Source of the DNA: a virus
Taxonomy: Duplodnaviria; Heunggongvirae; Uroviricota; Caudoviricetes
IMG/VR virus record: IMGVR_UViG_2693429668_000006
DNA length: 64,000 nucleotides
Reading direction: 5' to 3' (one strand)
Part shown: positions 23,366-36,017 of the stretch, one piece after another
Layout of the letters: each line of letters opens with the position of its first letter
Numbering within the stretch: position 1 is the stretch's first letter
Notes under the pieces: generated by a model
What the model saw: only the letters and a program-made list of their open reading frames with translations
Databases searched by the model: none
Told to the model about the DNA's origin: nothing
Position numbers and translations under genes: made by a program

Positions 23366-23725
23366 TCACCCTTTCTTCATCAACTCGCGTTTAATTTCAT
23401 CGGTACGCATCGTGACATCGGCAGCTGTGATCGCCTCGTTAAGTTTCACGATGTCCTCGATTTCCTGCGGTGTCTTCTCCGCAAGATGGAAAATAGCAGC
23501 ACGAATCACGTCAGAACGAGTGAACTTCTCGAAGCGAGGGATGAACTTCATCATCTCCAGCAGTTCGAAGTATTCGTCCTCCAGTGACATTGTGCGGCTT
23601 TTAATTTTCTCTTTGCCACGAGTCGGGCGTCCCTGTGGTCTGACTGGTTGGCGCAAAGGAGTTGTGTTCTTAGCCGGTGCATCAGGCTCTTTGCGCTTTG
23701 CTAGGTCACCCATTTTCATGGACAT
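23366..23725 (-). CDS. parG: ParG-like centromere-binding protein (putative ribbon-helix-helix)
   Basis: 119 aa; basic flexible N-terminus then short helical C-terminus; stop/start coupled to ParA gene, as in ParF/ParG type Ib systems. Confidence 0.55.
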   Translation of the reverse strand: MSMKMGDLAKRKEPDAPAKNTTPLRQPVRPQGRPTRGKEKIKSRTMSLEDEYFELLEMMKFIPRFEKFTRSDVIRAAIFHLAEKTPQEIEDIVKLNEAITAADVTMRTDEIKRELMKKG

Positions 23726-24393
23726 TATTCTTCTTCCTCCAGACTCAACAGATAATCTACAAATTCTTCAAACTCGGCTTCCGCCTTTTTGTCGCGCTCG
23801 CTACCGGTCATTTCAAAGATAGAACGACCAGACTCTTCCGCATCATCATAGACGTTGCGGTTATATAGATTGACTGGCGCAGACTCGATGCCAAACGTCT
23901 CAACAATCTCTTTAGCCGCCAGAATGCGAGACACTTGTGATGGCAAAGCCGGGCACTGGTTCATGACCGCGCGGACCTTCACTTTATCGTTTACATTACG
24001 AACATTGTCGATAATAGGATCGATGTCACGCAGAGATTTCAAATCACGACGCTTAGGACGAAGCGGGATAATGATAACGTCGGCCATCAGCATCGCTTGT
24101 CGCTGAATTTCGGAGTCAAAGCCACCAGCATCTACCACTACAAACTCAGCTCTACCCTGAAGCGATTTTAGGTGCTTAATGATGTCATCCTGAACGTATG
24201 CAAAAGGAATCAGCTCAAGGTCTTCGTTCTGTCGACGGTCTTCACACCAGCTTGTTGTCGTGCGCTGAATATCTATATCAGTGATATAAACCTTCTTCTT
24301 CTTTTTGACTTTCAGGCAAACGGCAATTTGCTGGGCAACGGTGGATTTGCCAGGCCCGCCCTTTGTGCCGCCAACCACAAAGATCTTGGTCAT
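23725..24393 (-). CDS. parA: ParA/ParF-type partition ATPase (small type Ib)
   Basis: 222 aa; deviant Walker A GGTKGGPGKST at N-terminus. Confidence 0.8.
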   Translation of the reverse strand: MTKIFVVGGTKGGPGKSTVAQQIAVCLKVKKKKKVYITDIDIQRTTTSWCEDRRQNEDLELIPFAYVQDDIIKHLKSLQGRAEFVVVDAGGFDSEIQRQAMLMADVIIIPLRPKRRDLKSLRDIDPIIDNVRNVNDKVKVRAVMNQCPALPSQVSRILAAKEIVETFGIESAPVNLYNRNVYDDAEESGRSIFEMTGSERDKKAEAEFEEFVDYLLSLEEEE

Positions 24394-24988: not shown

Positions 24989-25510
24989 GTGAGCAATACA
25001 ACGATAGAGATTTTCTCTGGAGAGAAAGATTATGATCTAAACGGTTTTGATTGCGGCGAAGAGTCACTAAACGCCTTTTTAGCCAACCACTTAAAAAGGC
25101 AGCATGAGGGAAAAATTCTTCGTGCTTATGTGCTTTGCACTCAAGAAGAAAGGCCAAAAGTGTTAGGATATTACACTTTGTCAGGTAGTTGTTTTGAAAA
25201 GGAGTCCTTACCTTCAAGAAGCAAACAAAAGAAGGTTCCTTATCGGAATGTTCCAAGTGTTACTTTGGGTAGGCTGGCTTTGGACAAGTCCCTTCAAGGT
25301 CAAGGATTTGGCTCAATGCTTGTAACACATGCAATGCGCGTTGTGTACAATGCATCTCTTGCTGTAGGCATTCATGGACTTTTCGTTGAGGCGTTAAATG
25401 ACAAAGCCAAGGCGTTTTATAAAAGTTTAGGCTTTATCCAGCTGGTTGGTAACAACGAGCGTTCTTTGTTCTATCCTACAAAATCTATCGAAAAATTGTT
25501 CGAAGAATAA
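24989..25510 (+). CDS. tacT: GNAT-family acetyltransferase toxin (TacT/AtaT-like)
   Basis: 173 aa; GNAT motif A region LQGQGFGSMLV; immediately follows the DUF1778 antitoxin. Confidence 0.8.
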   Translation: MSNTTIEIFSGEKDYDLNGFDCGEESLNAFLANHLKRQHEGKILRAYVLCTQEERPKVLGYYTLSGSCFEKESLPSRSKQKKVPYRNVPSVTLGRLALDKSLQGQGFGSMLVTHAMRVVYNASLAVGIHGLFVEALNDKAKAFYKSLGFIQLVGNNERSLFYPTKSIEKLFEE

Positions 25511-25542
25511 TGTGTTCCCCTCATTTGAGGGGAACTTCGACA

Positions 25543-25758
25543 TCACCAACCACAAACCCTCTCTCCCATCGTATTGTGAAAAAGGATTTGGCGTTCGGTT
25601 TCTTCAGTCATTACATCATTATTGCTGATATAGATAGGCTCAGCCCCATCGCAGAACAACACGCTGGCTGTTTGTGGTTTAATGACGCACCCACTTATCA
25701 TACAACTCACGATGAACGGCAGAAGCATCTTTCTGACGTATTTTACTGCTCGTCTCAT
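25543..25758 (-). CDS. candidate o-spanin-like outer-membrane lipoprotein overlapping the upstream gene
   Basis: 71 aa; lipobox CMISGC after hydrophobic leader; overlaps 3' end of the candidate i-spanin in another frame; not proline-rich, so tentative. Confidence 0.3.
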   Translation of the reverse strand: MRRAVKYVRKMLLPFIVSCMISGCVIKPQTASVLFCDGAEPIYISNNDVMTEETERQILFHNTMGERVCGW

Positions 25759-25930
25759 TCACCACTTTCACTGTGTTTTGAAGTCGTTTTCTGTCTTCCT
25801 GTTTTGCCTTCTCTTCCATTGCTCGTCGCGCCGCATTCCCGCCCATCGTGTAAGCGCCGACAAGAACGAAAAGAACGGCAGCCAGCGTAATCAAAGCAAC
25901 TTTTAGCTTTGTCATCAGGCTGCCTAGCAT
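25679..25930 (-). CDS. candidate i-spanin-like membrane protein
   Basis: 83 aa; N-terminal TM LKVALITLAAVLFVLVGAY then charged helical region; directly downstream of endolysin-like gene. Confidence 0.4.
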   Translation of the reverse strand: MLGSLMTKLKVALITLAAVLFVLVGAYTMGGNAARRAMEEKAKQEDRKRLQNTVKVVNETSSKIRQKDASAVHRELYDKWVRH

Positions 25931-25931
25931 A

Positions 25932-26651
25932 TTAGACCATCCCTTTCTGGTGTTTTCTTACCTGCGACCAGGCAATGAATCCTGCCACAACAATAGTGGC
26001 AATACCGAAGATGATGCGTACTGTATCCCCGCTAGAGATATGACCTTGTGCTTTATCCATAGCAGCGGAAACCTGCGGCATAACATCGGCCAGCTGCGCC
26101 AGACCAATACCTGCTGTAACAGTTGCGCCTGCGGTTTCTTTAGTTACAGGAACAGCCTTCACGGTTTTCACCGGCTTAACAACGCCAGCTCGACGCAGAC
26201 CTTCCTCAATAACTTCTGCCGCATACCAGGTGTTCAGCGTTTTTAGCGGGCCTCGGCCATTCTCGTGGCGAATGATTGCCTCAACCAAAGGTCGAAGGAT
26301 GTCGTAATCATGCAGATCGATGATCATGTCTGCGGTTACACCAACGGCTTTAGACACCTCATTAATGTAGGCGTCAGTATTGTTTTCATTCGGCGGTGCC
26401 CAGCGTTCAATAACTTCACGAATGGTATCGATACTTGTGCCGTCTTTTGCGCGACGTTTATCGTGGTAGGTAATTAGAGTCACCGCCAGCGCACGAATCC
26501 CCCAAACAGGGTCTTTAAACGTGCAAAAGCGCGGTTCGTCTGGATTCGCAACCAGACCTTGCCACGGTGATCCTTTATCAAGATTACCGGGGTTATTATT
26601 ACGAATGCCTCTCGGAGTCTTCATCCTTGATCTCCTGTTATTGCAGTCCAT
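25932..26651 (-). CDS. putative peptidoglycan hydrolase (endolysin-like) with C-terminal transmembrane anchor
   Basis: 239 aa; N-terminal GIRNNNPGNL motif region; C-terminal TM VRIIFGIATIVVAGFIAWSQV; flanked by membrane and spanin-like genes; family assignment from memory only. Confidence 0.4.
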   Translation of the reverse strand: MDCNNRRSRMKTPRGIRNNNPGNLDKGSPWQGLVANPDEPRFCTFKDPVWGIRALAVTLITYHDKRRAKDGTSIDTIREVIERWAPPNENNTDAYINEVSKAVGVTADMIIDLHDYDILRPLVEAIIRHENGRGPLKTLNTWYAAEVIEEGLRRAGVVKPVKTVKAVPVTKETAGATVTAGIGLAQLADVMPQVSAAMDKAQGHISSGDTVRIIFGIATIVVAGFIAWSQVRKHQKGMV

Positions 26652-26961
26652 TTTTTACGCCATACGCGGCTAACCCCAAAAGCAGTGCAGTAATAATGAA
26701 CGACGTTATTTTAGAAACAATGCCGCCAAAGAACCCACTGGAGATGGAATCTAACCGGTTAAGGAGCTTGTCCAGGTTGGAGTGTTGAATACTATGTTGC
26801 GCCGGGGTCATATCACCAAAGTAGGTTTTCAGCTGATCATTGACCTCCTGGCCAATTTCTTCACGTAGCTCTTTGCCTAATTTGCCAACAACCTCCCGAG
26901 CAACGATCGCGGCAATACGCTCAACTTGCTCTGTTGTAACGCCCGCCATCTCGTTCGACAT
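26638..26961 (-). CDS. membrane-anchored small protein, possible holin/lysis-associated
   Basis: 107 aa; single C-terminal TM ITSFIITALLLGLAAYGV; overlaps start of endolysin-like gene. Confidence 0.35.
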   Translation of the reverse strand: MSNEMAGVTTEQVERIAAIVAREVVGKLGKELREEIGQEVNDQLKTYFGDMTPAQHSIQHSNLDKLLNRLDSISSGFFGGIVSKITSFIITALLLGLAAYGVKNGLQ

Positions 26962-27164
26962 GTTTTCCTCCGTGAAAAGTCAAATCGGGATGGCGGATTT
27001 ATATCACACTTCTCCTTTTAATTGTAGGTATATACTTACCTACCTATACATATACCGTTTAACGGTTGTTCATATTCGCATCTAGTAACTCACTAATATA
27101 TCCCTATGATTGCGGCTGTGAAATCGCATTTTTAAACCACACAGCCATATAAATAATGTCTAAA

Positions 27165-30100
27165 TCAGTTACTTGTTGCCCCAACAGTACCTGCAAATTT
27201 CAGCCATTGACCTGACGGACTTCTATTACTACGGTAGTGATAAACGAGGATTGCGTTTGTAATCCCACCATAGTCAGCTTTGTGTGACGTCGTTAAACGA
27301 ATTGTATAATCACCGTTAGGTAGATTAAAAACTTCGATTATAGATTCTGCTAATTCTACAGCACCAAATCCCGTTATATTGTTGATACTGCCAGCATTGA
27401 ATCCCATAGCATCGCCAAAGCCAATCCAATAACTTTTGCTAAACGCCCCATTTGATTTTAGGTGGCTAATGAATGCGGACAAGCTCATGCCCATATCCCC
27501 ACCTGAAACAGAGGAAGTTCGCACAGTCATACTTGGAAGAGCACTGCTCTTCACATAGGAACTTAGAAGGTTTGTTACCTCTGTTTTCGTGTAAGCATTA
27601 AGGTTAGCCGCAGTCAAAGTTATATCGGCAGAGCCATCAAACGCCACACCAGCAATTTTCCTTGCTGTCTGCAATTTTGTGGCGGTTGCGGCATTACCAG
27701 TAGTGTTCTGGTTCCCATCTGCATTCACACCTGGAATGCTGTCTTTTTTAGTATATATCTGAGTCCAGTCCTCTTCGAACCCATAGCCATCACGTGATGA
27801 ACGGTAATACAATCCACCATTTTTATAATGCGCTCGGATTTGGAGAGTCCGACAACTACCTACGCCTATATAAAAATTTGCAACGATATAAGAATCCCCG
27901 GAGCGTGTAACATTATACGCACCTGATTCGGCATTCCACGGGACCGCACCACTAGCATCGGCATAAGTTCCAGTAGCGCGTCGAGCAAAAGCAGATACAT
28001 TTGCAGCTGTTAGTGTTATATCAGCAGAACCATCAAAAGACACGCCGCTTATTTTTCTAGCAGTTTGCAACTTCGTAGCTGTTGAAGCATTACCGTTCAA
28101 ACTACCATTTACGCCACCAGTAACATTTAGTCCATTACCAATGGACACAGCACCGCTGGTATTATTAATTGTAATAGGTCGCAAACCGTTCCATGAACCT
28201 AATGTGTCTCCTGATGCTGTTAGCATGAAATATGTGTTCGATCCATCATTACGGATAAAGAACCCAAAGCTACCGTAAGCAATGCGGAAACCATTTGCAT
28301 ATTTTGAAACGATCTCACCAGAAGACGTTAATCCGCCAGTTAACGCTCCTCCAGATAGTGGTAAAGCTCCGACATCAGCCGCAGTAGGCTTGTTTTTAGT
28401 GTTATACGCTCTGCGCCATCCTGGTGAATAGCTCGTCCCGTTAAATACATAGATAAACTCCGCATTAGTGAGAGCACCAGAGACACTCGCCGTTGTGGCC
28501 GTTGTTATACGGATCGTATAATTGTTTGAGCTACTACCGTTATTAAATACCTCTATAACAGCTCCTGCTAATGGAATAACGCCACAACCAGTTTCACTAT
28601 TTGGTATGGTTGCACTATTGGCATAGGCCCACGCACATCGAGCAATCCATGACTTTGTGTTAAATGCTCCATTATTTTGCAATAACGTCACTAACTGTGC
28701 TGTTGTTATTGCTCCGCCATTACTTCCTGTAGTTAACCAACCAGTAGGAGATGCCGGGCAACCTATATTTGCTGGCGACAAGGAAATATTTGCCGAGCCG
28801 TCAAACGACACCCCATTGATAGTACGCGCAGTCTGCAACTTCGTAGCAGTAGCCGCGTTGCCCGTTGTATTCTGATTACCAGTCGTATTAACACCTGGCA
28901 AATTAATATTCGCAGTACCATCAAAGCTCACGCCGCCGATAGTTCTTGCCGTCTGAAGTTTTGTAGCAGTTGCAGCATTACCAGTGGTGTTCTGATTACC
29001 CGTAGTGTTTACACCTGGAAGGTTAATATTTGCAGAACCGTCGAAAACAACTCCACCGATAGATCTTGCCGTCTGCAATTTCGTGGCTGTACTTGCATTA
29101 CCATTCAATGAACCAGTTAATCCACCTGTAACAGACAACGGACCTGAAACTGTTCCTCCGGTTGTTGGCAGTGCTCCAATATCTGATGGTGTAGGTTTCT
29201 GATGTGAGCTATACATCGTATAAACAACACCATCGGTAACGCTGGAAGGCTTACTCGCTGAATATGTTGGCGAGGTATAAATAGAAACTGTCGCATTTGC
29301 AGTACAATCCCAATGGATATTTACACGAGTCGCATAATTGCCAATCTCAACGTAAATATCATATGTATCGCCGGATGTGTTGATCCAGGCGAAATTCGTT
29401 AATCCGACAGCTGTACGCTTCCACAAAGCACCTGTAATCCCTTTGGGGTTTCCATTGCCTGCTCGTAGAACCAGTTCTGAAATGCCTGCCTGATGTGGGG
29501 AGCCGACGTTGTAACCAGCGCCACCAATCAATGCGATGTAAACGATGGAACTCGCTTGTGGCATGGTAACCGTAGCCAGTTTGAACCACCCTGCCCCGCC
29601 AGAGAAAGACATCGTTACTGAATTTAAAGTACCAATATCTTTCGGCGTTAATGTGATATCCGCAGTCAGTGCTTTACCGTTAACTTTTCGGTTAGATGGC
29701 ACCCTGCTATTCGCATTGTCATTGGCTGCTTTAACTGCTTTTGGCGTTGCGGCCAGCGATTCACTGGTGCTGTCGACAGCACTGCTAAGTTTCACAACAC
29801 CTTTAGTTGTAAGGCTTGCGTCTTCCATCGCAACTGCACCGGCAATCTCTTCAGCACGATCAGCAGCAGCTTCCGCACGGGTCGCAGCGGATTCAGCAGC
29901 AGTTTTGCTCTGAGATGCTGCCGTCGCACTGCCTGCCGCCTCTGTTGCTTTCGTGGATGCCGTCGTGGCACTGCCCTTCGCTGCTGACGCCTGTCTGGTC
30001 GCCTCATCTTTTGAAGCAGACGCAGATGATGCCGATGACGCCGCCGAACTGGCGGACGATGCGGCAGCCGTTTTTGAGGATTCTGCGCTGGTTTCCGACG

Positions 30101-31190
30101 CTTTCGCGTTCGTTTCGGATGTCTTCGCTGCGGAAGCAGACCTCGCTGCTGCGCTAGCCTGTTCAGTGGCTTCGCCAGCCTTCGTTGTGGCTGTTGAAGC
30201 AGACGATGCGGCACTTTCTGCCGATTTTCCGGCGGCGGTGGCACTGGCTGAGGCCTGCCCGGCACTTGTTGACGCGGCACTGGCAGACGACGCAGCCGCT
30301 GTTTTTGAGCCTGCCGCAGCTGAGGCACTCTGTGCTGCTGCCGTCTCAGAAGACTTAGCGTTCGTCTCGGACGTTTTTGCCGCCTTCGCGGAATTGCCTG
30401 CCGCTGTTGCCGAGGAGGCTGCACTACTGGCGCTCAAGGATGCGTTCGTTTCTGATGATTTCGCTGCCTCTTTTGAGGCCGCCGCATCCCGGGCTGAGGT
30501 GGCAGCTTCTGACGCTTTCGTGGTCGCGGTGGATGCAGAAGTGGCTGCTGATTGTTGTGACGCTGCGGCATTCGTTTCAGATTTTTTCGCAGCAGTTGCA
30601 CTCGCACTTGCGGCACTTTGTGAGGATGCCGCAGCGGATGCACTTTGAGACGCTTGAGAGGCTTTTTCTCCAGCGGTATTGGCGCTTTCTGCTGCTGCGG
30701 CAGCACTGGCCGCTGCCTCACGAGCTTTGTCGCCAGCAGCATCAATCGCGTCAGTGTTATTTTTATACCACTCAACGTTTTCGTTGTGCTCGTTGACGAT
30801 CTGCATTAGCGGCTTAACGGTTACTTCTGTACCGTCTTCACGCTCGATTGTCACCTCATCCAGAGCAGTCAACCAACTGCGCATAGACTTGGAATCAGCC
30901 GACATACGCGACATTAGTGCTGTAAAGCGCGCGCTAAACTGTGTTAAGTCGCCTTCATAGGTCGTAATGATTCGGCACGGAACCTCAGACTGAGTTTCGC
31001 CGGTATAAGGTTCTGAGAGAACAATATTCGTATCGCTTATTACGCGCTTGATCTCATACAGCTTATTGTCGGGGCCAATGACGATCATCCCCGGCAACAC
31101 ACCATTAGCTGTTACGTTCCAGGCTGTCCCTGCCCCAACCAGAGTATTGCTACCCTGTGTAAATGTGATAGTACCTTCCCTGTACCACAT
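27165..31190 (-). CDS. side tail fiber protein with Ala/Ser-rich rod and multiple phage tail-fibre repeats
   Basis: 1341 aa; about 300-aa A/S/T-rich low-complexity segment; at least 6 copies of GN(A/S)(A/S)TATKLQTAR(x)I(G/S)GV(x)FDG(S/T)A(N/D)I as in lambda Stf-type fibres. Confidence 0.85.
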   Translation of the reverse strand: MWYREGTITFTQGSNTLVGAGTAWNVTANGVLPGMIVIGPDNKLYEIKRVISDTNIVLSEPYTGETQSEVPCRIITTYEGDLTQFSARFTALMSRMSADSKSMRSWLTALDEVTIEREDGTEVTVKPLMQIVNEHNENVEWYKNNTDAIDAAGDKAREAAASAAAAAESANTAGEKASQASQSASAAASSQSAASASATAAKKSETNAAASQQSAATSASTATTKASEAATSARDAAASKEAAKSSETNASLSASSAASSATAAGNSAKAAKTSETNAKSSETAAAQSASAAAGSKTAAASSASAASTSAGQASASATAAGKSAESAASSASTATTKAGEATEQASAAARSASAAKTSETNAKASETSAESSKTAAASSASSAASSASSASASKDEATRQASAAKGSATTASTKATEAAGSATAASQSKTAAESAATRAEAAADRAEEIAGAVAMEDASLTTKGVVKLSSAVDSTSESLAATPKAVKAANDNANSRVPSNRKVNGKALTADITLTPKDIGTLNSVTMSFSGGAGWFKLATVTMPQASSIVYIALIGGAGYNVGSPHQAGISELVLRAGNGNPKGITGALWKRTAVGLTNFAWINTSGDTYDIYVEIGNYATRVNIHWDCTANATVSIYTSPTYSASKPSSVTDGVVYTMYSSHQKPTPSDIGALPTTGGTVSGPLSVTGGLTGSLNGNASTATKLQTARSIGGVVFDGSANINLPGVNTTGNQNTTGNAATATKLQTARTIGGVSFDGTANINLPGVNTTGNQNTTGNAATATKLQTARTINGVSFDGSANISLSPANIGCPASPTGWLTTGSNGGAITTAQLVTLLQNNGAFNTKSWIARCAWAYANSATIPNSETGCGVIPLAGAVIEVFNNGSSSNNYTIRITTATTASVSGALTNAEFIYVFNGTSYSPGWRRAYNTKNKPTAADVGALPLSGGALTGGLTSSGEIVSKYANGFRIAYGSFGFFIRNDGSNTYFMLTASGDTLGSWNGLRPITINNTSGAVSIGNGLNVTGGVNGSLNGNASTATKLQTARKISGVSFDGSADITLTAANVSAFARRATGTYADASGAVPWNAESGAYNVTRSGDSYIVANFYIGVGSCRTLQIRAHYKNGGLYYRSSRDGYGFEEDWTQIYTKKDSIPGVNADGNQNTTGNAATATKLQTARKIAGVAFDGSADITLTAANLNAYTKTEVTNLLSSYVKSSALPSMTVRTSSVSGGDMGMSLSAFISHLKSNGAFSKSYWIGFGDAMGFNAGSINNITGFGAVELAESIIEVFNLPNGDYTIRLTTSHKADYGGITNAILVYHYRSNRSPSGQWLKFAGTVGATSN
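28780..29140. repeat. three tandem ~120-bp imperfect repeats inside the tail fiber gene
   Basis: Units beginning at roughly 28784, 28904 and 29024 (ATATTTGCCGAGCCGTCAAACGACACC... / ATTCGCAGTACCATCAAAGCTCACGCC... / ATTTGCAGAACCGTCGAAAACAACTCC...); dispersed related copies near 27600 and 27990. Confidence 0.8.
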
Positions 31191-31283: not shown

Positions 31284-34200
31284 TCACAGACGGCCAATTC
31301 TTACTCGTAGGACGTTGTTATCGTCATAAACGTCAATCCGCTGACCATTTATAACCAATCTCCCATTGCCGCCGCTATTACCGTTGATCTCAAGCGTTCC
31401 ATTTTTGCCGAACCGCCATCCAGATCTACCGCTAACAAAATTGGTAGATTGCAGATCGCCTACTTTTGCATTGGTGATTGTGCCATCCTTGATATACGCT
31501 CCATTCATATAGGCGATACTGTTTTCGATAACAAATGGCGTTGTGATCTTCCCGTTAACAGAGTTGACCAAACCAAACCTGTCCGCCTGAACCAAAAACT
31601 GAGATAGCCCAGTGGTGTCAATACCAAGCGCAATACCGGCAACATACTTCTGCCCTCCGCTCGTTGAAGTCTCCATTTTCAACGTCCACGCGGTTGATAC
31701 TTTTTTGTTGGTATCAGCAATAGCTGTTGCCTGCTGTTGAATTGTCGCGGTATTTCCATCCACCTCTGCTTTCAGAGTATCGATTCGCCCACTCAGAGCA
31801 TTATCTGCCTGCGTTCTCGCTGTCGTTTCAGTTGTGACCGCCGCAGAAATGTTGGCTGCTGTTTGAGACTCTAAGTTTGTGATTTGAGTCGCCAATGCAG
31901 CATCTTGCTCTGTACGCGTTTTCGTTTCGGTTGCTACAGCCGCTTTAATATCCTCTTTGTATTGAGAGGTCAGCTTGGTGATCTGAGACGACAACGCCGA
32001 GTCAGCATCAGTTCGAGCCTGCGTTTCAACTGCAACGGCCGCACTAATATCTTTCGCTGTCTGTGCTTTTAAACTTGAAACCTCTTTTGTTAAAGCGGTA
32101 TCACCATCTGCACGAGCCGTTGTTTCTCTGGCAAGAGACGCCTCGAGATCATTAGCTTTTGCTGTAAGAGACGTAATCTGGGTAGACAATGCACTATCGG
32201 CATCAGTCCTTGCTTTTGTCTCTACAGCAACCGCTGCGGCAATATCAGTTCCGGTTTGTGCTCGCAGGCTGTTAATTTCTCGTGAGAGCGCCTGGTCAGC
32301 ACTTGCTCTGGCCTCCTGCTCCTGAGTGATGGCCGCGGATATATCACCGTCAACCTTTGACTGAAGCTGGTTTATTTGTTTGGCTAACGCAGAGTCCCCG
32401 CTTGCTCGGGCCTCCTGCTCACTACGTATTGCAGCAGAAATATCATCATCAACCTTTGCCTGAAGTTGGGTGATCTGGCTTGCCAGAGCCGAATCTTCCG
32501 TTGCTCGGGCTTCTTGCTCTTCCTTAATGGCTGCGACGATATCGTTGCTTACTTTCGACTCAAGCTGAGTGATCTGTGTCGTCAGAGCTTCATCGGCAGA
32601 TGTACGAGCCTCCTGCTCTGTACTAATCGCCGCGCTGATATCTCCTTCAAACTTAGATTGCAGCTGAGTGACACGCTTTGCCAACGCTTCATCGCCATCG
32701 GCACGAGCGGTGGACTCTTCCAGAATACTGGCCTTAATGTCTTCGCCAATTTCTACGCGAATTTCCTCAACCTTCGTGGCCATTGCAGACATATCATCAG
32801 CAAAGGTTTTCTGTGTTGTTGCGATCTTCGCGTTATTGACCATCTGCTTGTGCTGGTCTTCATCTTGACGAAGAGCCAGGTCAATATTTGTTTTGGCTAA
32901 CGCCTCAATGTTCGTAGTCAGTTCTGCACTGGCACGATCGACCTCTGCAACCGTCTTTTTCATTTCTTCAACGGCAGCGGAGCTTTCCTCTACCGTTGAC
33001 TGCAACACTTCCAGTTGTTTAGCGTTTGCAGCATCGCCTTCAACACGAGCCTCGCTTTCCTTAGCAATAAGAGCCGCCGCTTCATCTCTTGCAGCCTTTA
33101 TTGCCTCGACTGTATTAGCGAGAGCTTTATCGTGTTCAGATACGGTGTTTTCGATTTCAACAATTGCAGCATCAGTAGCATCAATTTTTTCAAACGCTTC
33201 ATTGACCTTGTCGATCGTTGCCGAAACCTCACCTTTAAGCTCGGTTTGTGCGTTCTCCAAAGCATCGCTACGCTCGTTGAATTTTATTTCAAAATCCGCG
33301 AGGTTATCGCTGAACTGCTTATCTAATTCAGCTATATCTTCCTTAACGTCGTTTACCGCCCCCTCCAAAGATTCGACGCTCTGGTTGATATGCTCATTTA
33401 ACTCGTCAACTGCTTCTTGAGAGGCTTTGCTGTTGATGTCCTCAAGCAGAGCCTGACCAAGCTCGGAAGATGTAATTTTGCCAGTCAGGAACGACAGTAC
33501 ATCGCGAGTTGTCGCCTCTGTACCCAAGTTTGAGTTCGGAGGACTTAACATACCTCGCTTGTTCGATGCTCGAACCCAGTAATACCACGTTTCGCTATCC
33601 CCAAGACCAGCATGTGTAAAGGTGGTGCTTGCAGACTCTGCGATCAGTTTCGCCGTATCCAGATTGTTGGTCTGGGATGCGTAAACATTAATGTGATCAA
33701 GGTCTACCGAATCTGGATTAACCCAATTCAGTATCACATTACGATAGTCTCCAACGGCCGTTAATGACGTTGGGGCATCCGGCGGTGTCATTGTGCCCAA
33801 CACCTGATAAACGGTACTGATAATCTCTGTTTTTTTACCGTTGAATGAAACCGCATACAGCTGGAAGTCGTAGCGTCCATTCTCCGCGACATTAACGATT
33901 TCGTATTGCTCTTCGGTTACACGCGCCGATTGCCAGTTCGATACATTGTTTTCATCAGAACGTCGCCAACTGATCCAATACTCTGGAGATTTCCCTTCCC
34001 ATGTTGCAGTCAGTTTTACTGACAGGTTGCCCGGGCTTGAGAGATAAGTCCCTTCAGTGATTTGCAGATTAGATGGCTTGGAGTAAGTTGGGTCCAATAC
34101 CGTCGTATTCTGCGGGATCAGCGTTGCACCATTGTCGATTGCCTCATATTTAGACGGATTGTTCTCAACAGCGGTGATGTCAAAGCTACCCGGCGTTTCC

Positions 34201-36017
34201 CCCTGCGCGATGTTAACGATGCGAACGCGCATAGGTTCGAGGTCTGGTTCTGTAATAGTCCAGACGCCGTTCAAAACAGGCGTTTCAGCCGAAGACAGGG
34301 CTTTTGAAAACGTAACTTTTGTTATATTTTCGCCAGTTTCAAGAACATCGCGTTCAACGATTTTGCCTTCCTGATTCAGTATTCGAATAAAGCAGCCGCC
34401 TTTGGCTAACGACACAGGCGCATCGAGTGTGACGCTGTTTTTGGTAAACGCCACAATTCGACCTGAGTTACGTTTGCCTGCGCGATATTTGTTCTGAATC
34501 AGAACGGTTTCACCAGGCATCAGAAATGACGCGTCTAAGCCGGCAGTAAATGTAATTACATCCGACTCCATTCTGGCGGTATATAAAAGCCACAAACCAA
34601 CTCGGTGAGCCTGCCCTCGGCTTGTACAGCCAAATGCTACGACTTCTGTTTTACGCTCACCATAACGGCGCATTGCGTCCTGATCTTCGACGTACTCGAT
34701 GTTTTGCTTATAACCGTCCTCCTTGTTGTTGTAGGTTACGAGCGCAACGGATGGGCGATCTTTACGCGCAGAACCTTTATAGGTAAACAATCCATCTTTG
34801 ACGTTAGAGTTGGTAAACATCATTACCGGATCTGATGGGCTATCCTGCATGATGTTAACCATCCCACCAGCCCAAAACACCATGCCGCGGAATGCTCCGG
34901 CAATATCCTGAATTAGCCGGTATGCGTCCTGTCGACTGGTGATCTGCGTATTGATTGCAAAGCGTTTCTCTTTGCCACCAAAGCCATCATCGACCTCTTC
35001 GTCACAATATCGACCAATCTGGTACAACTGGCCAAGGTCAATCATAGATTCCGACACATACTGACCAAGGCCATATCGAGCATTGGTCAGCAAATCAAAG
35101 AGAATCCACGCGGGGTTCGAAGAAGACAACAGCTTAAAAGTGCCATCCCATACCCCAGCGTAAGTGTTACTGGACTCGTTATAGTTTGAAGGTACTCGAA
35201 TTTTTAGGCCACGCACCAGATAAGAGCGAGATGGCATGGTGCTGCCGAATTGCTCAGAGTTTACCTTCAATCCAACCAAAACAGAGTTTGGATAGTTCAT
35301 CGGTGTATCGACAATTTCCCCGATTGAATCCACCCATGTATCGTTATAGAGATACTGGCTACTGTTATCATCGGTAATACGGACCACACGAACCTTGTAT
35401 GCTCGTCCAGGCTTAGGCAGCTTCAGCTCATAGCTACGGTAATAAACGCCGGTCTTCTTTGCTGTTAGCTTAATGCCAACGCTTTTTTCACCTTCAGCGA
35501 CCACATCTACAAATGTTGAGTCGCCATTTGCTATCTGGAACTTGTACTCAACAGTCGTACCGTTCGTGTCACCAGTTTTTTTATCTATGCTTCGCAAAGA
35601 AGGAAACTTCATGATGACACGAACCCGATCAGCTTCATCGTTATCGATTGAAACCGTTACATAATGTGTTTTTTTTAACTGGATATTGACGGATTTAGGC
35701 GTTTCAACGAAATCAAAGCCAGACATTGGAGTCTGGTCTTGTGAACCGTCGCGAAAATCCCATGTGATTCCGCTGAAGTTGGAGGAACCGTCTTCATTTA
35801 CAATCGGCAGATCGTCGATAAAAATAGATCTTGCGCCATTTACTAAGCCGCCAATTACCCCTTCCCCAAGAAGATCGAGGATAGCGGCCATTGCACGAGA
35901 ATTTACGGTATCGTCGGCTTCAACCGGTGTACGGCTGGAGCTTTTGCTGCTTTTTTTACCACCCGCACCGGCAATAAACAGCGGTAGCTTTTTCTTCTTG
36001 AACTGTTCCATGTTCAA
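31284..36017 (-). CDS. host specificity / tail tip protein (lambda gpJ-like) with long C-terminal coiled-coil repeat region
   Basis: 1577 aa; N-terminal two-thirds resembles gpJ-type tip attachment proteins; position after I-K-L-M as in lambda; C-terminal about ten 33-aa tandem repeats. Confidence 0.8.
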   Translation of the reverse strand: MNMEQFKKKKLPLFIAGAGGKKSSKSSSRTPVEADDTVNSRAMAAILDLLGEGVIGGLVNGARSIFIDDLPIVNEDGSSNFSGITWDFRDGSQDQTPMSGFDFVETPKSVNIQLKKTHYVTVSIDNDEADRVRVIMKFPSLRSIDKKTGDTNGTTVEYKFQIANGDSTFVDVVAEGEKSVGIKLTAKKTGVYYRSYELKLPKPGRAYKVRVVRITDDNSSQYLYNDTWVDSIGEIVDTPMNYPNSVLVGLKVNSEQFGSTMPSRSYLVRGLKIRVPSNYNESSNTYAGVWDGTFKLLSSSNPAWILFDLLTNARYGLGQYVSESMIDLGQLYQIGRYCDEEVDDGFGGKEKRFAINTQITSRQDAYRLIQDIAGAFRGMVFWAGGMVNIMQDSPSDPVMMFTNSNVKDGLFTYKGSARKDRPSVALVTYNNKEDGYKQNIEYVEDQDAMRRYGERKTEVVAFGCTSRGQAHRVGLWLLYTARMESDVITFTAGLDASFLMPGETVLIQNKYRAGKRNSGRIVAFTKNSVTLDAPVSLAKGGCFIRILNQEGKIVERDVLETGENITKVTFSKALSSAETPVLNGVWTITEPDLEPMRVRIVNIAQGETPGSFDITAVENNPSKYEAIDNGATLIPQNTTVLDPTYSKPSNLQITEGTYLSSPGNLSVKLTATWEGKSPEYWISWRRSDENNVSNWQSARVTEEQYEIVNVAENGRYDFQLYAVSFNGKKTEIISTVYQVLGTMTPPDAPTSLTAVGDYRNVILNWVNPDSVDLDHINVYASQTNNLDTAKLIAESASTTFTHAGLGDSETWYYWVRASNKRGMLSPPNSNLGTEATTRDVLSFLTGKITSSELGQALLEDINSKASQEAVDELNEHINQSVESLEGAVNDVKEDIAELDKQFSDNLADFEIKFNERSDALENAQTELKGEVSATIDKVNEAFEKIDATDAAIVEIENTVSEHDKALANTVEAIKAARDEAAALIAKESEARVEGDAANAKQLEVLQSTVEESSAAVEEMKKTVAEVDRASAELTTNIEALAKTNIDLALRQDEDQHKQMVNNAKIATTQKTFADDMSAMATKVEEIRVEIGEDIKASILEESTARADGDEALAKRVTQLQSKFEGDISAAISTEQEARTSADEALTTQITQLESKVSNDIVAAIKEEQEARATEDSALASQITQLQAKVDDDISAAIRSEQEARASGDSALAKQINQLQSKVDGDISAAITQEQEARASADQALSREINSLRAQTGTDIAAAVAVETKARTDADSALSTQITSLTAKANDLEASLARETTARADGDTALTKEVSSLKAQTAKDISAAVAVETQARTDADSALSSQITKLTSQYKEDIKAAVATETKTRTEQDAALATQITNLESQTAANISAAVTTETTARTQADNALSGRIDTLKAEVDGNTATIQQQATAIADTNKKVSTAWTLKMETSTSGGQKYVAGIALGIDTTGLSQFLVQADRFGLVNSVNGKITTPFVIENSIAYMNGAYIKDGTITNAKVGDLQSTNFVSGRSGWRFGKNGTLEINGNSGGNGRLVINGQRIDVYDDNNVLRVRIGRL
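31730..32720. repeat. about ten tandem 99-bp (33-aa) coiled-coil repeats within the gpJ-like gene
   Basis: Protein repeats ALxxQITQLxSKVxxDISAAIxxEQEARxxxDx; DNA periodicity visible across this interval. Confidence 0.75.

What the first reader, a model, noticed from the sequence alone, without database searches (positions are those of the whole stretch)
27165..31190. Side tail fiber with tandem DNA repeats, multiple fibre-repeat modules and a ~300-aa Ala/Ser-rich rod
The gene contains three tandem ~120-bp repeats (28780-29140), further dispersed copies of the same unit (near 27600, 27990), and a GC-rich low-complexity segment (about 29870-30770) that produces long spurious ORFs in other frames. 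Such internal repeats are substrates for recombination and repeat-number variation, a plausible host-range diversification mechanism.
Basis: seen in the sequence. Interest (0 to 1): 0.4.

Follow-up and report, generated by a model that had tools for sequence, protein, structure and literature searches.

The report
Mosaic phage-plasmid side tail fibre
This is the ordinary but well-preserved side tail fibre gene of an SSU5-type E. coli phage-plasmid, built from a long coiled-coil rod and knob modules joined by a conserved 40-residue connector; a minority of natural relatives carry one connector fewer, and modules are swapped between phages at the connectors.

Summary
Window 27165-31190 (-) is one intact 1341-aa ORF directly after the J gene of an SSU5/Cyrano-like phage-plasmid.

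- **Repeats.** Five 120-nt (40-aa) units are present: three in tandem (28779-29138) and two dispersed (28011-28130, 27615-27734).
- **Rod.** The GC-rich segment (about 29835-30755) encodes roughly 42 uninterrupted heptads with Ala in the core. It is homologous to the lambda Stf/StfR proximal coiled coil. Its off-frame ORFs are by-products of codon composition.

The units are old: 54-73% nt identity, synonymous sites at the random expectation, and no shared exact run above 14 nt. They are therefore poor substrates for homologous recombination.

Even so, close relatives carry alleles exactly one unit shorter. There are three distinct in-frame junctions, each in a 7-12-nt in-register microhomology. 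These alleles are rare, about 5 of roughly 200 plasmids.

Knob modules and the C-terminus are exchanged among SSU5-like, lambdoid and P1-like fibres. Left edges of the swapped modules fall at the ends of units. The unit matches 16,509 representative proteins but no Pfam or NCBIfam model.

This fits the long-known picture of mosaic tail fibres. Any effect on host range is untested. Low-to-moderate interest.

The parts
27165..31190 (-). Side tail fibre gene, 1341 aa, intact
   Evidence: Single ORF. 100% identical to plasmid MF554642.1 and to an E. coli plasmid; 97% identical to phage Cyrano CYRAN_21 'tail fiber protein'. Follows the J gene at 31284-36017.
30756..31190 (-). N-terminal anchor domain (aa 1-145), SSU5 type
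   Evidence: 77.9% nt identity to the SSU5 tail fibre over nt 1-515. Matches tail-fibre PHROGs. Weak match to the F2-pyocin side fibre N-terminus 25ve, E 0.0025. No PF08400 match.
29835..30755 (-). Ala/Ser/Thr-rich coiled-coil rod (aa ~146-452), about 42 uninterrupted heptads
   Evidence: Ala periodicity power at 3.5 and 7.0 residues is 7.8 and 3.9, against a shuffle maximum of 2.5. Identity autocorrelation peaks at every multiple of 7. One heptad position is Ala in every heptad from about aa 150 to 445 with no phase shift. 87-95% nt identity to lambdoid stf/stfR, and 4124 of 5426 E. coli genomes hold a match to some part of the gene, almost all in this rod. Corresponds to the Ur-lambda Stf proximal coiled coil, residues 102-393 (PMC12617516).
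29706..29828 (-). Conserved G-VVKLSS...LAATPKAVK motif (aa 455-495), the single alpha-beta fibre repeat shared with Mu S/S', P1 S and lambda Stf
   Evidence: Aligns to Mu S and S' (5yvq, 8ju3) residues 105-156. Resembles the Gly-strand...Thr-Pro-helix repeat described for T4 gp34/gp12 (PMC5537660); this resemblance is inferred, not aligned. Similarity to lambdoid genes ends at nt 1478, just after it.
29646..29684 (-). Half-unit (aa 503-515, VNGKALTADITLT) preceding knob A
   Evidence: the repeat finder family D6 third copy at 29657-29679. In relatives the same knob follows a full unit ending ...FDGSKNIELT.
29199..29645 (-). Knob A (aa 516-664), globular module of unknown fold
   Evidence: No Pfam or PDB sequence match. 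Replaced as a block in 7 relative clusters, aa 497-664. Present a second time after R3 in 1362-aa relatives and in a P1-like S protein.
29139..29198 (-). Connector motif KPTPSDIGALPTTGG... (aa 665-684); a second copy lies at aa 934-949
   Evidence: Right edges of swapped modules fall just before both copies, at aa 664 and 933.
28779..29138 (-). Three tandem 40-aa/120-nt units: R1 29019-29138, R2 28899-29018, R3 28779-28898
   Evidence: One-unit deletion junctions in relatives lie at CAGACGGCAAGA (29064-29075 / 28944-28955), CTATCGG (29056-29062 / 28936-28942) and GGTAATCAGAA (28990-29000 / 28870-28880).
28392..28778 (-). Knob B (aa 805-933), homologous to a domain of Mu gp52 (S')
   Evidence: 8ju3 residues 186-326, domain E 1.5e-27. 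Swapped as a block, aa 800-933, in 15 relative clusters.
28131..28391 (-). Segment similar to the T4 gp34 / Mu S trimerisation domain (aa 934-1020)
   Evidence: Pfam PF21446 Gp34_trimer, E 2.7e-30, aa 901-1008. PDB 5yvq residues 243-339 and gp34 structures 4uxe/9x3r.
28011..28130 (-). Unit R4 (aa 1021-1060)
   Evidence: Left edge of the knob C swaps at aa 1053-1061. DNA similarity ends at nt 3069-3075 and 3165-3176.
27735..28010 (-). Knob C (aa 1061-1152), homologous to a second domain of Mu gp52
   Evidence: 8ju3 residues 324-411, domain E 2.2e-19. The most frequently replaced module, in 57 of 120 relative clusters. L006 is 38% identical over nt 3201-3400 (replaced segment about nt 3173-3423) and 99-100% elsewhere.
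27615..27734 (-). Unit R5 (aa 1153-1192)
   Evidence: C-terminal swaps start at aa 1188, inside ...FDGS|ADITL, or at aa 1213.
27165..27614 (-). C-terminal linker and distal knob B' (aa 1193-1341), the presumed receptor-binding tip
   Evidence: Paralogue of knob B: 37% identity, E 8e-14. Matches 8ju3 residues 215-304, E 1e-8. Replaced in relatives by tips carrying Peptidase_S74 or a gp37/lambda-type His-box tip plus tfa. The receptor-binding role is inferred from its distal position only.

Best explanation
The gene encodes the trimeric side tail fibre of an SSU5/Cyrano-type siphoviral phage-plasmid. It is a modular mosaic.

Architecture, N- to C-terminus:
- an SSU5-type anchor domain;
- a roughly 300-residue Ala-core coiled-coil rod of about 42 heptads, about 44 nm if alpha-helical, which is the same module as in lambda Stf and Rac StfR;
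- a distal beta-rich part in which knobs A, B, a gp34-like trimer domain, knob C and knob B' are strung together by a conserved 40-residue connector, PGVN..GNQNTTGNAATATKLQTARxIxGVxFDGSANIxL, present as a triplet and two singles.

Shown here:
- The connector is an ancient, strongly constrained protein element. Synonymous sites between copies are at the random expectation.
- It is very widespread in phage fibres, with tandem runs of 1-6 copies.
- In natural relatives, arrays lose exactly one unit through rare deletions at the best in-register microhomologies (7-12 nt).
- Whole knob and tip modules differ between otherwise near-identical genes, with left edges at the C-terminal end of a unit.
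- The same modules occur in different orders in lambdoid prophage Stf and P1-like S proteins.

Inferred:
- The units are structural spacers that set the length and spacing of the fibre in 40-residue quanta.
- Because they are conserved across otherwise unrelated fibre genes, they also provide the homology and the fold-compatible joints at which modules are exchanged between co-resident phages. That exchange, rather than a change in unit number, would be the main route to new receptor specificity.

The confidence given is for the whole statement. Identity and architecture alone would rate about 0.95; the connector-as-exchange-joint inference about 0.55.
For: Identity and context:
- Searches give 97-100% nt identity to Cyrano/pLF82-type plasmids.
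- One search shows J-protein domains in the upstream ORF.
- PMC9928086 describes Cyrano as an SSU5-like siphovirus that produces virions.

Coiled coil: for the heptad signal; for homology to stf/stfR; PMC12617516 for the Stf coiled coil.

Age of the units:
- Nucleotide identity is 54-73% and third-position identity 30-47%.
- The longest shared exact run is 8-14 nt.
- Identical-residue codons match 111 times against 94 expected by chance.

Unit-number polymorphism:
- L002/L003 equal the window array minus 120 nt, with 0 mismatches in 288 nt.
- There are three junction types. Two of them occur on two different array haplotypes.
- All are in frame and found in complete plasmids and independent assemblies.

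Module exchange:
- Block replacements are bounded at aa 800, 1053-1061 and 1188, all at ...FDGS|A of a unit, and at aa 664 and 933 before the KPTxxDxGALP motif.
- Of 12 DNA similarity end-point classes from whole-gene searches, 7 lie in units that cover 24% of the distal gene (P = 0.015).
- P0082/P0095 join a lambda-type N-terminus to this body at 99% identity.
- L012 and L013 show the same units and knobs in other orders.

Spread of the unit: 16,509 representative proteins match at E <= 0.001, with up to 20 stretches per protein and tandem runs up to 6.
Against: - No structure of the 40-residue unit is available. The AF2 monomer model was unusable (pLDDT 48), and PDB matches to the unit are weak (E about 0.002). 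'Structural connector' is therefore inferred from position and conservation.
- Mosaic edges at units could reflect survival of fold-compatible chimeras rather than homology-guided crossover. Similarity naturally ends where a conserved motif ends, so the end-point statistic is not an independent test.
- End-point classes are few and not phylogenetically independent.
- Right edges of swapped modules often lie outside units (aa 664, 933, 1121-1141).
- No host-range, adsorption or fibre-length data exist for any allele.
- No tail fibre assembly chaperone gene follows the fibre, so how the tip folds is unknown.
Confidence: 0.75

Rival explanations
1. One reading: the tandem DNA repeats are active recombination or slippage substrates. 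Unit number would then vary at appreciable frequency within phage populations and act as a host-range switch, in the manner of a contingency locus.
For: One-unit-shorter alleles arose at least three times. Arrays of 1-6 units occur in the wider family, and some have 93-97% identical neighbouring units.
Against: - The units share 54-73% nt identity and no exact run above 14 nt.
- Synonymous sites are saturated, so there has been no recent duplication or gene conversion.
- Only 2 or 3 tandem units are seen among the 120 closest protein clusters.
- The window's exact protein heads a cluster of 182 member sequences.
- Two-unit junctions at >=99% identity occur in only about 5 of roughly 200 plasmids with the array.
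- From my own knowledge (Lovett laboratory work on RecA-independent tandem-repeat deletion), deletion rates fall steeply with divergence and with shorter homology. High-frequency switching is therefore not expected.
Confidence: 0.1
2. Module boundaries coincide with units only because of selection. Recombination happens anywhere (illegitimately or at short homologies), and only chimeras joined at domain borders fold into working trimers. On this view the units play no role in promoting exchange.
For: Right-hand edges of swapped blocks often fall outside units, at aa 664, 933 and 1121-1141. The one-unit deletions themselves used only 7-12-nt microhomology, which shows that illegitimate events do occur here.
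Against: Units are conserved at the DNA level between different phage lineages well enough to seed megablast matches that start or stop inside them. Examples are P1 at nt 2176-3075 and lambdoid prophages ending at nt 2248-2261. Usable homology therefore exists exactly there. Left edges coincide with unit ends in 3 of 5 classes, while the last 8 residues of units make up about 3% of the protein.
Confidence: 0.3
3. The one-unit-shorter alleles are assembly artefacts, produced by collapse of tandem repeats.
For: Some examples come from short-read (Logan) assemblies.
Against: - Neighbouring units differ at 28-42% of nucleotides, so they do not collapse in assembly.
- The alleles occur in closed circular plasmids from different countries and species: CP088392, CP088482, E. 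albertii CP099896 and AP026520.
- There are three distinct junctions, all in frame and each at a microhomology.
Confidence: 0.02

Closest known systems
Lambda/Ur-lambda side tail fibre Stf and Rac prophage StfR
   Same: Both sit after J in a lambda-like tail module. Both have an Ala/Ser-rich proximal trimeric coiled coil (87-95% nt identity to lambdoid stf genes over nt 525-1478; PMC12617516). Both carry the conserved ...LAATPKAVK motif after the rod.
   Different: The N-terminal anchor is SSU5-type, not PF08400. The distal half is built from Mu gp52-like knobs and 40-aa units instead of the gp37-like His-box tip. No tfa gene follows. Natural hybrids with the lambda N-terminus do exist (P0082, P0095).
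Phage Mu S/S' (gp49/gp52) and P1 S tail fibres
   Same: It shares the conserved motif region (Mu residues 105-156), both gp52 knob domains, and the gp34/Mu S trimer domain. It is 78% nt-identical to P1 S over nt 2176-3075. A P1-like plasmid S protein carries the same units and knobs.
   Different: There is no invertible segment, no Cin/Gin recombinase and no U-type chaperone next to the gene. It sits on a siphoviral, not a contractile, tail. The knob modules are separated by 40-aa units and one knob is duplicated.
T-even gp37/gp38 adhesin swapping at conserved motifs (Tetart et al. 1998, title cited in PMC3157838; recalled from my own knowledge), and the mosaic tail-fibre concept of Haggard-Ljungquist 1992 and Sandmeier 1994 (own knowledge)
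   Same: Conserved short motifs flank variable modules, and mosaic edges coincide with the motifs. Duplication or loss of small fibre segments changes fibre composition.
   Different: The motif is different (a 40-residue unit rather than His boxes or Gly-rich islands) and so is the phage group. There is no experimental demonstration here.
T4 gp34/gp12 mixed alpha-beta fibrous repeats (PMC5537660)
   Same: Tandem 33-47-residue structural repeats form the fibre shaft between globular domains. One such motif appears to be present at aa 455-495.
   Different: The 40-aa unit studied here has a different consensus and does not align to gp34 (one search matches only aa 941-1033). Its fold is unknown.

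Membership tests
Lambda-type side tail fibre (Stf/StfR) | Gene immediately downstream of the J (tip attachment) gene in a lambda-like tail module | tested here: met
   The upstream ORF 31284-36017 carries FNIII-A_GpJ, Phage-tail_3 and Phage_Tail_Tip. The Cyrano annotation reads TMP-M-L-K-I-J-fibre.
Lambda-type side tail fibre (Stf/StfR) | N-terminal PF08400 'Prophage tail fibre N-terminal' collar domain | tested here: not met
   Pfam finds only Gp34_trimer even at E <= 10. Relatives P0082/P0095 carry PF08400 in place of aa 1-203.
Lambda-type side tail fibre (Stf/StfR) | Long Ala/Ser-rich proximal coiled coil homologous to Stf | tested here: met
   87-95% nt identity to stf/stfR over nt 525-1478. 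Uninterrupted heptads.
Lambda-type side tail fibre (Stf/StfR) | gp37-like His-box receptor-binding tip with a downstream tfa chaperone | tested here: not met
   The C-terminus is a Mu gp52-like knob. Holin and endolysin follow the gene. The lambdoid relative L012 does have the His-box tip and tfaR.
Mu S/S' - P1 S tail fibre family | Conserved Sc-type motif (GxVxLSSA..SxSE..AATxKAVK) and gp52/gp49 distal domains | tested here: met
   8ju3: aa 451-502, 790-939 and 1067-1152. 5yvq: aa 451-502 and 931-1027. C-terminal knob against 8ju3, E 1e-8.
Mu S/S' - P1 S tail fibre family | Invertible segment with alternative C-termini, a Gin/Cin recombinase and U/U' chaperones | tested here: not met
   No inverted fibre cassette, recombinase or tfa lies adjacent. 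The downstream ORFs are holin, endolysin, a KacT-type toxin-antitoxin pair and ParA.
Pfam PF21446 Gp34_trimer | Score above the gathering threshold | tested here: met
   105.7 bits against a cut-off of 27, aa 901-1008.
Pfam PF03406 Phage_fiber_2 (phage tail fibre repeat) | The 40-aa units match the model | tested here: not met
   No hit at E <= 10 for the protein or at E <= 1 for the isolated array. NCBIfam gives no hit. PF03406 is found in relative P0061 at a different position.
Contingency-type (hypermutable) tandem-repeat locus | Near-identical tandem DNA units able to slip or recombine at high rate | tested here: not met
   54-73% nt identity, longest shared exact run 14 nt, and synonymous sites at the random expectation.
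Contingency-type (hypermutable) tandem-repeat locus | Unit-number polymorphism among close relatives | tested here: met
   2-unit against 3-unit alleles with three junction types. They are rare in PLSDB.
Contingency-type (hypermutable) tandem-repeat locus | Length heterogeneity within a single phage population | not testable with these tools
   This needs deep long-read sequencing of lysates.
Motif-mediated mosaic tail fibre (T-even gp37/38 paradigm) | Variable modules flanked by conserved motifs, with mosaic edges at the motifs | tested here: met
   Block replacements are bounded at unit ends. 7 of 12 DNA end-point classes lie in units, P = 0.015. The same modules appear in other orders in L012 and L013.
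Motif-mediated mosaic tail fibre (T-even gp37/38 paradigm) | Recombination at the motifs shown to change host specificity | not testable with these tools
   This needs crosses and host-range assays.

The most novel reading that the evidence does not exclude
The 40-residue unit could be a cross-family 'adaptor'. It would be kept nearly invariant in protein sequence in thousands of sipho-, myo- and phage-plasmid fibres because it does two jobs. First, it would be a universal fold-compatible joint at which any knob or tip module can be exchanged. Second, it would be a length quantum whose copy number (1-6) tunes how far the tip reaches through O-antigen or capsule. Under this reading, the rare one-unit deletions seen here would be adaptive host-range changes rather than neutral accidents.
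Probability: 0.15. Interest if true: 0.5.

Novelty: new member of a known kind. Interest (0 to 1): 0.3.

Why it matters
Tail fibres set phage host range, and SSU5-type phage-plasmids are common in E. coli, some carrying resistance genes. A clear module map has three practical uses.

- **Engineering.** The map (anchor, coiled-coil rod, knobs, 40-residue connectors) gives rational junction points for fibre engineering. Nature has already joined lambda-, P1- and SSU5-type parts at these positions.
- **Annotation.** Many database records mis-annotate this gene. The fibre is truncated at an internal ATG and an antisense 'hypothetical protein' is called inside the rod.
- **Curation.** A very widespread fibre repeat lacks a Pfam or NCBIfam model.

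Biologically the result is confirmatory. It fits the classical picture of mosaic tail fibres and does not open a new question.

Tried and rejected
- **AF2 monomer model of aa 665-823 (R1-R3 with flanks).** Mean pLDDT was 48, so the model is unusable. No fold search was attempted.
- **Pfam, NCBIfam and PDB searches for the 40-aa unit.** No family matched. Only weak PDB matches appeared, to the phage L Dec C-terminus and to PhiM1 gp47.
- **PDB search for knob A.** Nothing found.
- **Counting 2-unit alleles with 100-nt junction probes.** The coverage criterion failed because hybrid units also align to 3-unit alleles at about 88%. Only the >=99% identity band could be used.
- **Selection for synonymous 'scrambling' between units (to suppress deletion).** Rejected as a demonstrable claim. 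Codon identity is at, not below, the random expectation: 111 observed against 94 expected.
- **Foreign origin for the GC-rich segment.** Rejected. GC3 is at background, and the excess sits at codon positions 1 and 2, reflecting Ala, Ser and Thr codons.
- **An invertible-segment (Cin/Gin) system, suggested by the P1/Mu similarity.** Rejected. No recombinase or inverted cassette lies in the neighbourhood.
- **Two extra genes after the fibre in relative L007 as possible chaperones.** They match membrane-protein moron PHROGs instead.
- **The 18-class end-point statistic.** It included end points from a query centred on the repeats and is biased. The 12-class version is the one reported.

Full report
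**1. What is there**

Window 27165-31190 (- strand) is one intact ORF of 1341 codons.

- The DNA is 100% identical to plasmid MF554642.1 and to an E. coli plasmid.
- It is 97% identical to 'tail fiber protein' CYRAN_21 of Escherichia phage Cyrano (= pLF82). Cyrano is an SSU5-like phage-plasmid that makes siphovirus particles (PMC9928086).
- The gene follows the tape-measure, M, L, K, I and J genes. The upstream ORF carries the GpJ domains.
- Holin and endolysin follow it, not a tail-fibre assembly gene.

**2.

Tandem Repeats Finder reports a 120-nt period at 28843-29103. The repeat finder reports five in-register copies.

In protein register the 40-residue units are:

| Unit | Residues | Window coordinates |
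|---|---|---|
| R1 | aa 685-724 | 29019-29138 |
| R2 | aa 725-764 | 28899-29018 |
| R3 | aa 765-804 | 28779-28898 |
| R4 | aa 1021-1060 | 28011-28130 |
| R5 | aa 1153-1192 | 27615-27734 |

The consensus is PGVN..GNQNTTGNAATATKLQTARxIxGVSFDGSANIxL, with 22 of 40 columns invariant. A half-unit precedes knob A at aa 503-515 (family D6).

The GC-rich segment (GC up to 0.62) encodes residues of about 146-452, which are 70-78% Ala+Ser+Thr. Five ORFs of 113-231 aa in other frames overlap it. They are by-products of composition:

- Four of six frames are almost free of stops there.
- The GC excess is at codon positions 1 and 2 (0.55, 0.77), while GC3 (0.46) is at background.
- Polymorphisms among relatives fall 42:11:10 on positions 3:1:2 of the fibre frame.

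Several database records nevertheless call an antisense 'hypothetical protein' here and start the fibre at an internal ATG.

**3. The rod**

The Ala/Ser region is a regular heptad repeat.

- The Ala signal has power 7.8 at period 3.5 and 3.9 at period 7.0, against a maximum of 2.5 in 200 shuffles.
- Sequence self-identity peaks at every multiple of 7.
- One heptad position is Ala in every heptad from about aa 150 to 445, with no phase shift.

That gives about 42 heptads, or roughly 44 nm if alpha-helical (inference).

At the DNA level, nt 525-1478 is 87-95% identical to stf genes of many lambdoid phages and to stfR of the K-12 Rac prophage. In all, 4124 of 5426 complete E. coli genomes hold a match to some part of the gene; in the sampled rows these matches fall almost entirely in this rod segment.

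**4. The distal half is a string of modules**

- aa 451-502 aligns to the conserved region of Mu S and S'. It resembles the Gly-strand...Thr-Pro-helix repeat described for T4 gp34/gp12 (PMC5537660).
- Knob A (aa 516-664) has no Pfam or PDB match.
- Knob B (aa 805-933) and knob C (aa 1061-1152) match two domains of Mu gp52/S', PDB 8ju3, with domain E-values 1.5e-27 and 2.2e-19.
- aa 931-1033 matches Mu S and the T4 gp34 trimerisation region, Pfam PF21446, E 2.7e-30.
- The C-terminal knob (aa about 1230-1320) is a paralogue of knob B (37% identity, E 8e-14). It also matches 8ju3 (E 1e-8).
- The N-terminal 145 residues are SSU5-type, not the lambda PF08400 domain. They weakly resemble an F2-pyocin side fibre (E 0.0025).

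**5. Age and nature of the units**

- Between copies, amino-acid identity is 57-93% and nucleotide identity only 54-73%.
- Third-position identity is 30-47%.
- In-register shared exact runs between two units are 8-14 nt, and the longest exact direct repeat anywhere in the gene is 14 nt.
- At positions with the same residue, the same codon is used 111 times against 94 expected from random synonymous choice. Every pair lies within about 1-2 SD of expectation.

The copies are therefore ancient and held by strong purifying selection on the protein. They are not recent duplications and are not homogenised by gene conversion.

A profile of the five units matches 16,509 representatives (50%-identity clusters) at E <= 0.001. 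There are up to 20 matched stretches per protein, a strict 40-residue spacing, and tandem runs of 1 to 6.

Neither Pfam nor NCBIfam models the unit. The only PDB sequence matches are weak: the phage L Dec C-terminus 6e3c and PhiM1 fibre gp47 8vbx. An AF2 monomer model was unusable (pLDDT 48).

**6. Unit number does vary**

Among the 120 closest protein clusters, the tandem array has three units in most and two in about 29. None has four.

DNA from seven two-unit alleles shows exact 120-nt in-frame losses at three junctions:

| Junction | Microhomology | Units | Found in |
|---|---|---|---|
| J1 | 12-nt CAGACGGCAAGA | R1/R2 | L008 |
| J2 | 7-nt CTATCGG, one mismatch downstream of J1 in the same 20-nt block | R1/R2 | L002, L003, L011 |
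| J3 | 11-nt GGTAATCAGAA | R2/R3 | L004, L010, L009 |

- The 12-nt and 11-nt runs are the longest in-register identities between adjacent units.
- L002/L003 equal the window's array minus one unit, with 0 mismatches in 288 nt.
- J2 and J3 each occur on two different array haplotypes. This implies at least three, and probably five, independent events.
- Because the three units differ at synonymous sites, the three-unit form is ancestral and the two-unit forms are deletions.

They are not assembly artefacts. Neighbouring units differ at 28-42% of nucleotides, and the alleles occur in closed plasmids from E. coli and E. albertii.

They are uncommon. Junction probes at >=99% identity find three (J2) and two (J3) plasmids among roughly 110-210 matching records per probe.

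This pattern fits rare microhomology-mediated slippage or illegitimate recombination. It does not fit a fast switch. The expectation that rates are very low at this divergence is from my own knowledge of the tandem-repeat deletion literature.

**7. Modules are exchanged at the units**

Protein alignments of the 120 relatives to the window show block replacements:

| Block | Residues replaced | Clusters |
|---|---|---|
| Knob A | aa 497-664 | 7 |
| Knob B | aa 800-933 | 15 |
| Knob C | aa 1053/1061 to 1121-1152 | 57 |
| C-terminus | from aa 1188 | 9 |
| C-terminus | from aa 1213 | 8 |

- Left edges sit at ...FDGS|A inside R3, R4 and R5.
- Two right edges sit just before the repeated motif KPTxxD(I/V)GALPxxGG.

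The DNA identity profiles are sharply mosaic. L006 is 99-100% identical except for 38% in the 200-nt bin nt 3201-3400, within a replaced segment spanning about nt 3173-3423, between R4 and R5. L005 is 66-70% identical only in nt 601-1200.

Similarity to other phage lineages starts or stops inside units:
- P1 S: nt 2176-3075.
- P1-like plasmids: nt 2171-3569.
- CMS-2020a: nt 1-3176.
- Lambdoid prophages: nt 525-2248/2261.

Of the 12 end-point classes from whole-gene searches, 7 lie in units that cover 24% of the distal gene (binomial P = 0.015). This statistic is suggestive only, because similarity naturally ends where a conserved motif ends.

Other natural examples:
- A lambdoid prophage Stf (L012) has the same rod, knob A and R1. 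A second unit is then fused directly to knob C and a gp37-type His-box tip, with tfaR and pinR downstream.
- A P1-like S protein (L013) has unit pairs alternating with knob A, the gp34-like domain and knob C.
- P0082/P0095 carry a lambda PF08400 N-terminus on this fibre body at 99% identity.
- Alternative C-termini carry a Peptidase_S74 intramolecular chaperone.

**8. Interpretation**

The fibre is an anchor, a coiled-coil rod, and a chain of knobs joined by a conserved connector.

Shown:
- the architecture;
- the antiquity and constraint of the unit;
- rare exact one-unit deletions at microhomologies;
- module replacement bounded by units;
- re-use of the same parts in lambdoid and P1-like fibres.

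Inferred:
- that the unit is a shaft spacer setting length in 40-residue steps;
- that its conservation supplies both homology and fold-compatible joints for exchange;
- that tip and knob exchange, rather than unit number, changes receptor specificity.

The main rival for the second inference is that selection for foldable chimeras alone explains the edge positions.

**9. Verdict**

Repeat-number variation and recombination are real. However, the DNA repeats are too diverged to be good recombination substrates, variation is rare, and a link to host range is untested.

The whole picture is an instance of classical tail-fibre mosaicism in a phage-plasmid lineage. Two minor new details are a widespread 40-residue fibre unit with no curated model and documented one-unit deletion alleles.

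Novelty: new member of a known kind. Interest: about 0.3.

Noticed in passing
window 29953-30648 (+); L002/L003/L004 2043-2726 (-), L007 3043-3336 (-): Several GenBank/RefSeq records of related plasmids start the fibre CDS at an internal ATG. They also annotate an antisense 'hypothetical protein' inside the Ala/Ser coiled-coil region. This is an annotation artefact of the stop-poor GC-rich segment.
   Followed up: partly
Plasmids CP025883, CP025870, CP025894, CP025868 (H73-H76): The orthologous fibre gene is interrupted by an IS2 element in four related plasmids. These phage-plasmids are probably fibre-defective.
   Followed up: no
window 27165-27614 and 28392-28778 (-): The C-terminal knob is a paralogue of the internal knob B (37% identity, E 8e-14). 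Both are homologous to a domain of Mu gp52/S' (8ju3). The fibre thus contains an internal copy of a tip-like domain, suggesting growth by accretion of a second distal segment.
   Followed up: partly
window 25932-27164 (-): No tail-fibre assembly chaperone gene follows the fibre; holin (26638-26961) and endolysin (25932-26651) come next. Relatives with other C-termini carry a Peptidase_S74 intramolecular chaperone (P0060, P0106) or tfaR plus pinR (L012). How this tip folds is open.
   Followed up: partly
window 29199-29645 (-), knob A: This 150-residue module has no Pfam, NCBIfam or PDB sequence match. It is swapped as a block, and it occurs twice in 1362-aa relatives and in a P1-like S protein.
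   Followed up: partly
40-aa unit; P0121-P0270: The unit matches 16,509 representative proteins, with up to 20 stretches per protein and tandem runs up to 6, but no Pfam or NCBIfam model. The same motif occurs in the C-terminal stalk of the phage L decoration protein Dec (6e3c) and in PhiM1 fibre gp47 (8vbx).
   Followed up: partly
L007 6719-7581: One relative has two small membrane-protein genes inserted between the fibre and the holin. They match PHROG 557 'outer membrane protein' and PHROG 425 'membrane associated protein', and they accompany a different fibre C-terminus.
   Followed up: partly
window 24989-25890 (+) and 23725-24393 (-): An acetyltransferase-type (KacT-like) toxin sits beside a small neighbouring ORF; Cyrano annotates a KacT toxin and a putative antitoxin at this position. 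A ParA partition gene lies just beyond the lysis genes, as in phage Cyrano.
   Followed up: no
P0061 (1236 aa) and P0002 (1329 aa): Rare relatives have shorter rods: the ATPKAV motif lies at aa 375 or 468 instead of 480. P0061 carries a PF03406 Phage_fiber_2 repeat at aa 354-394, near the end of its shortened rod. Rod length is otherwise strikingly constant.
   Followed up: no
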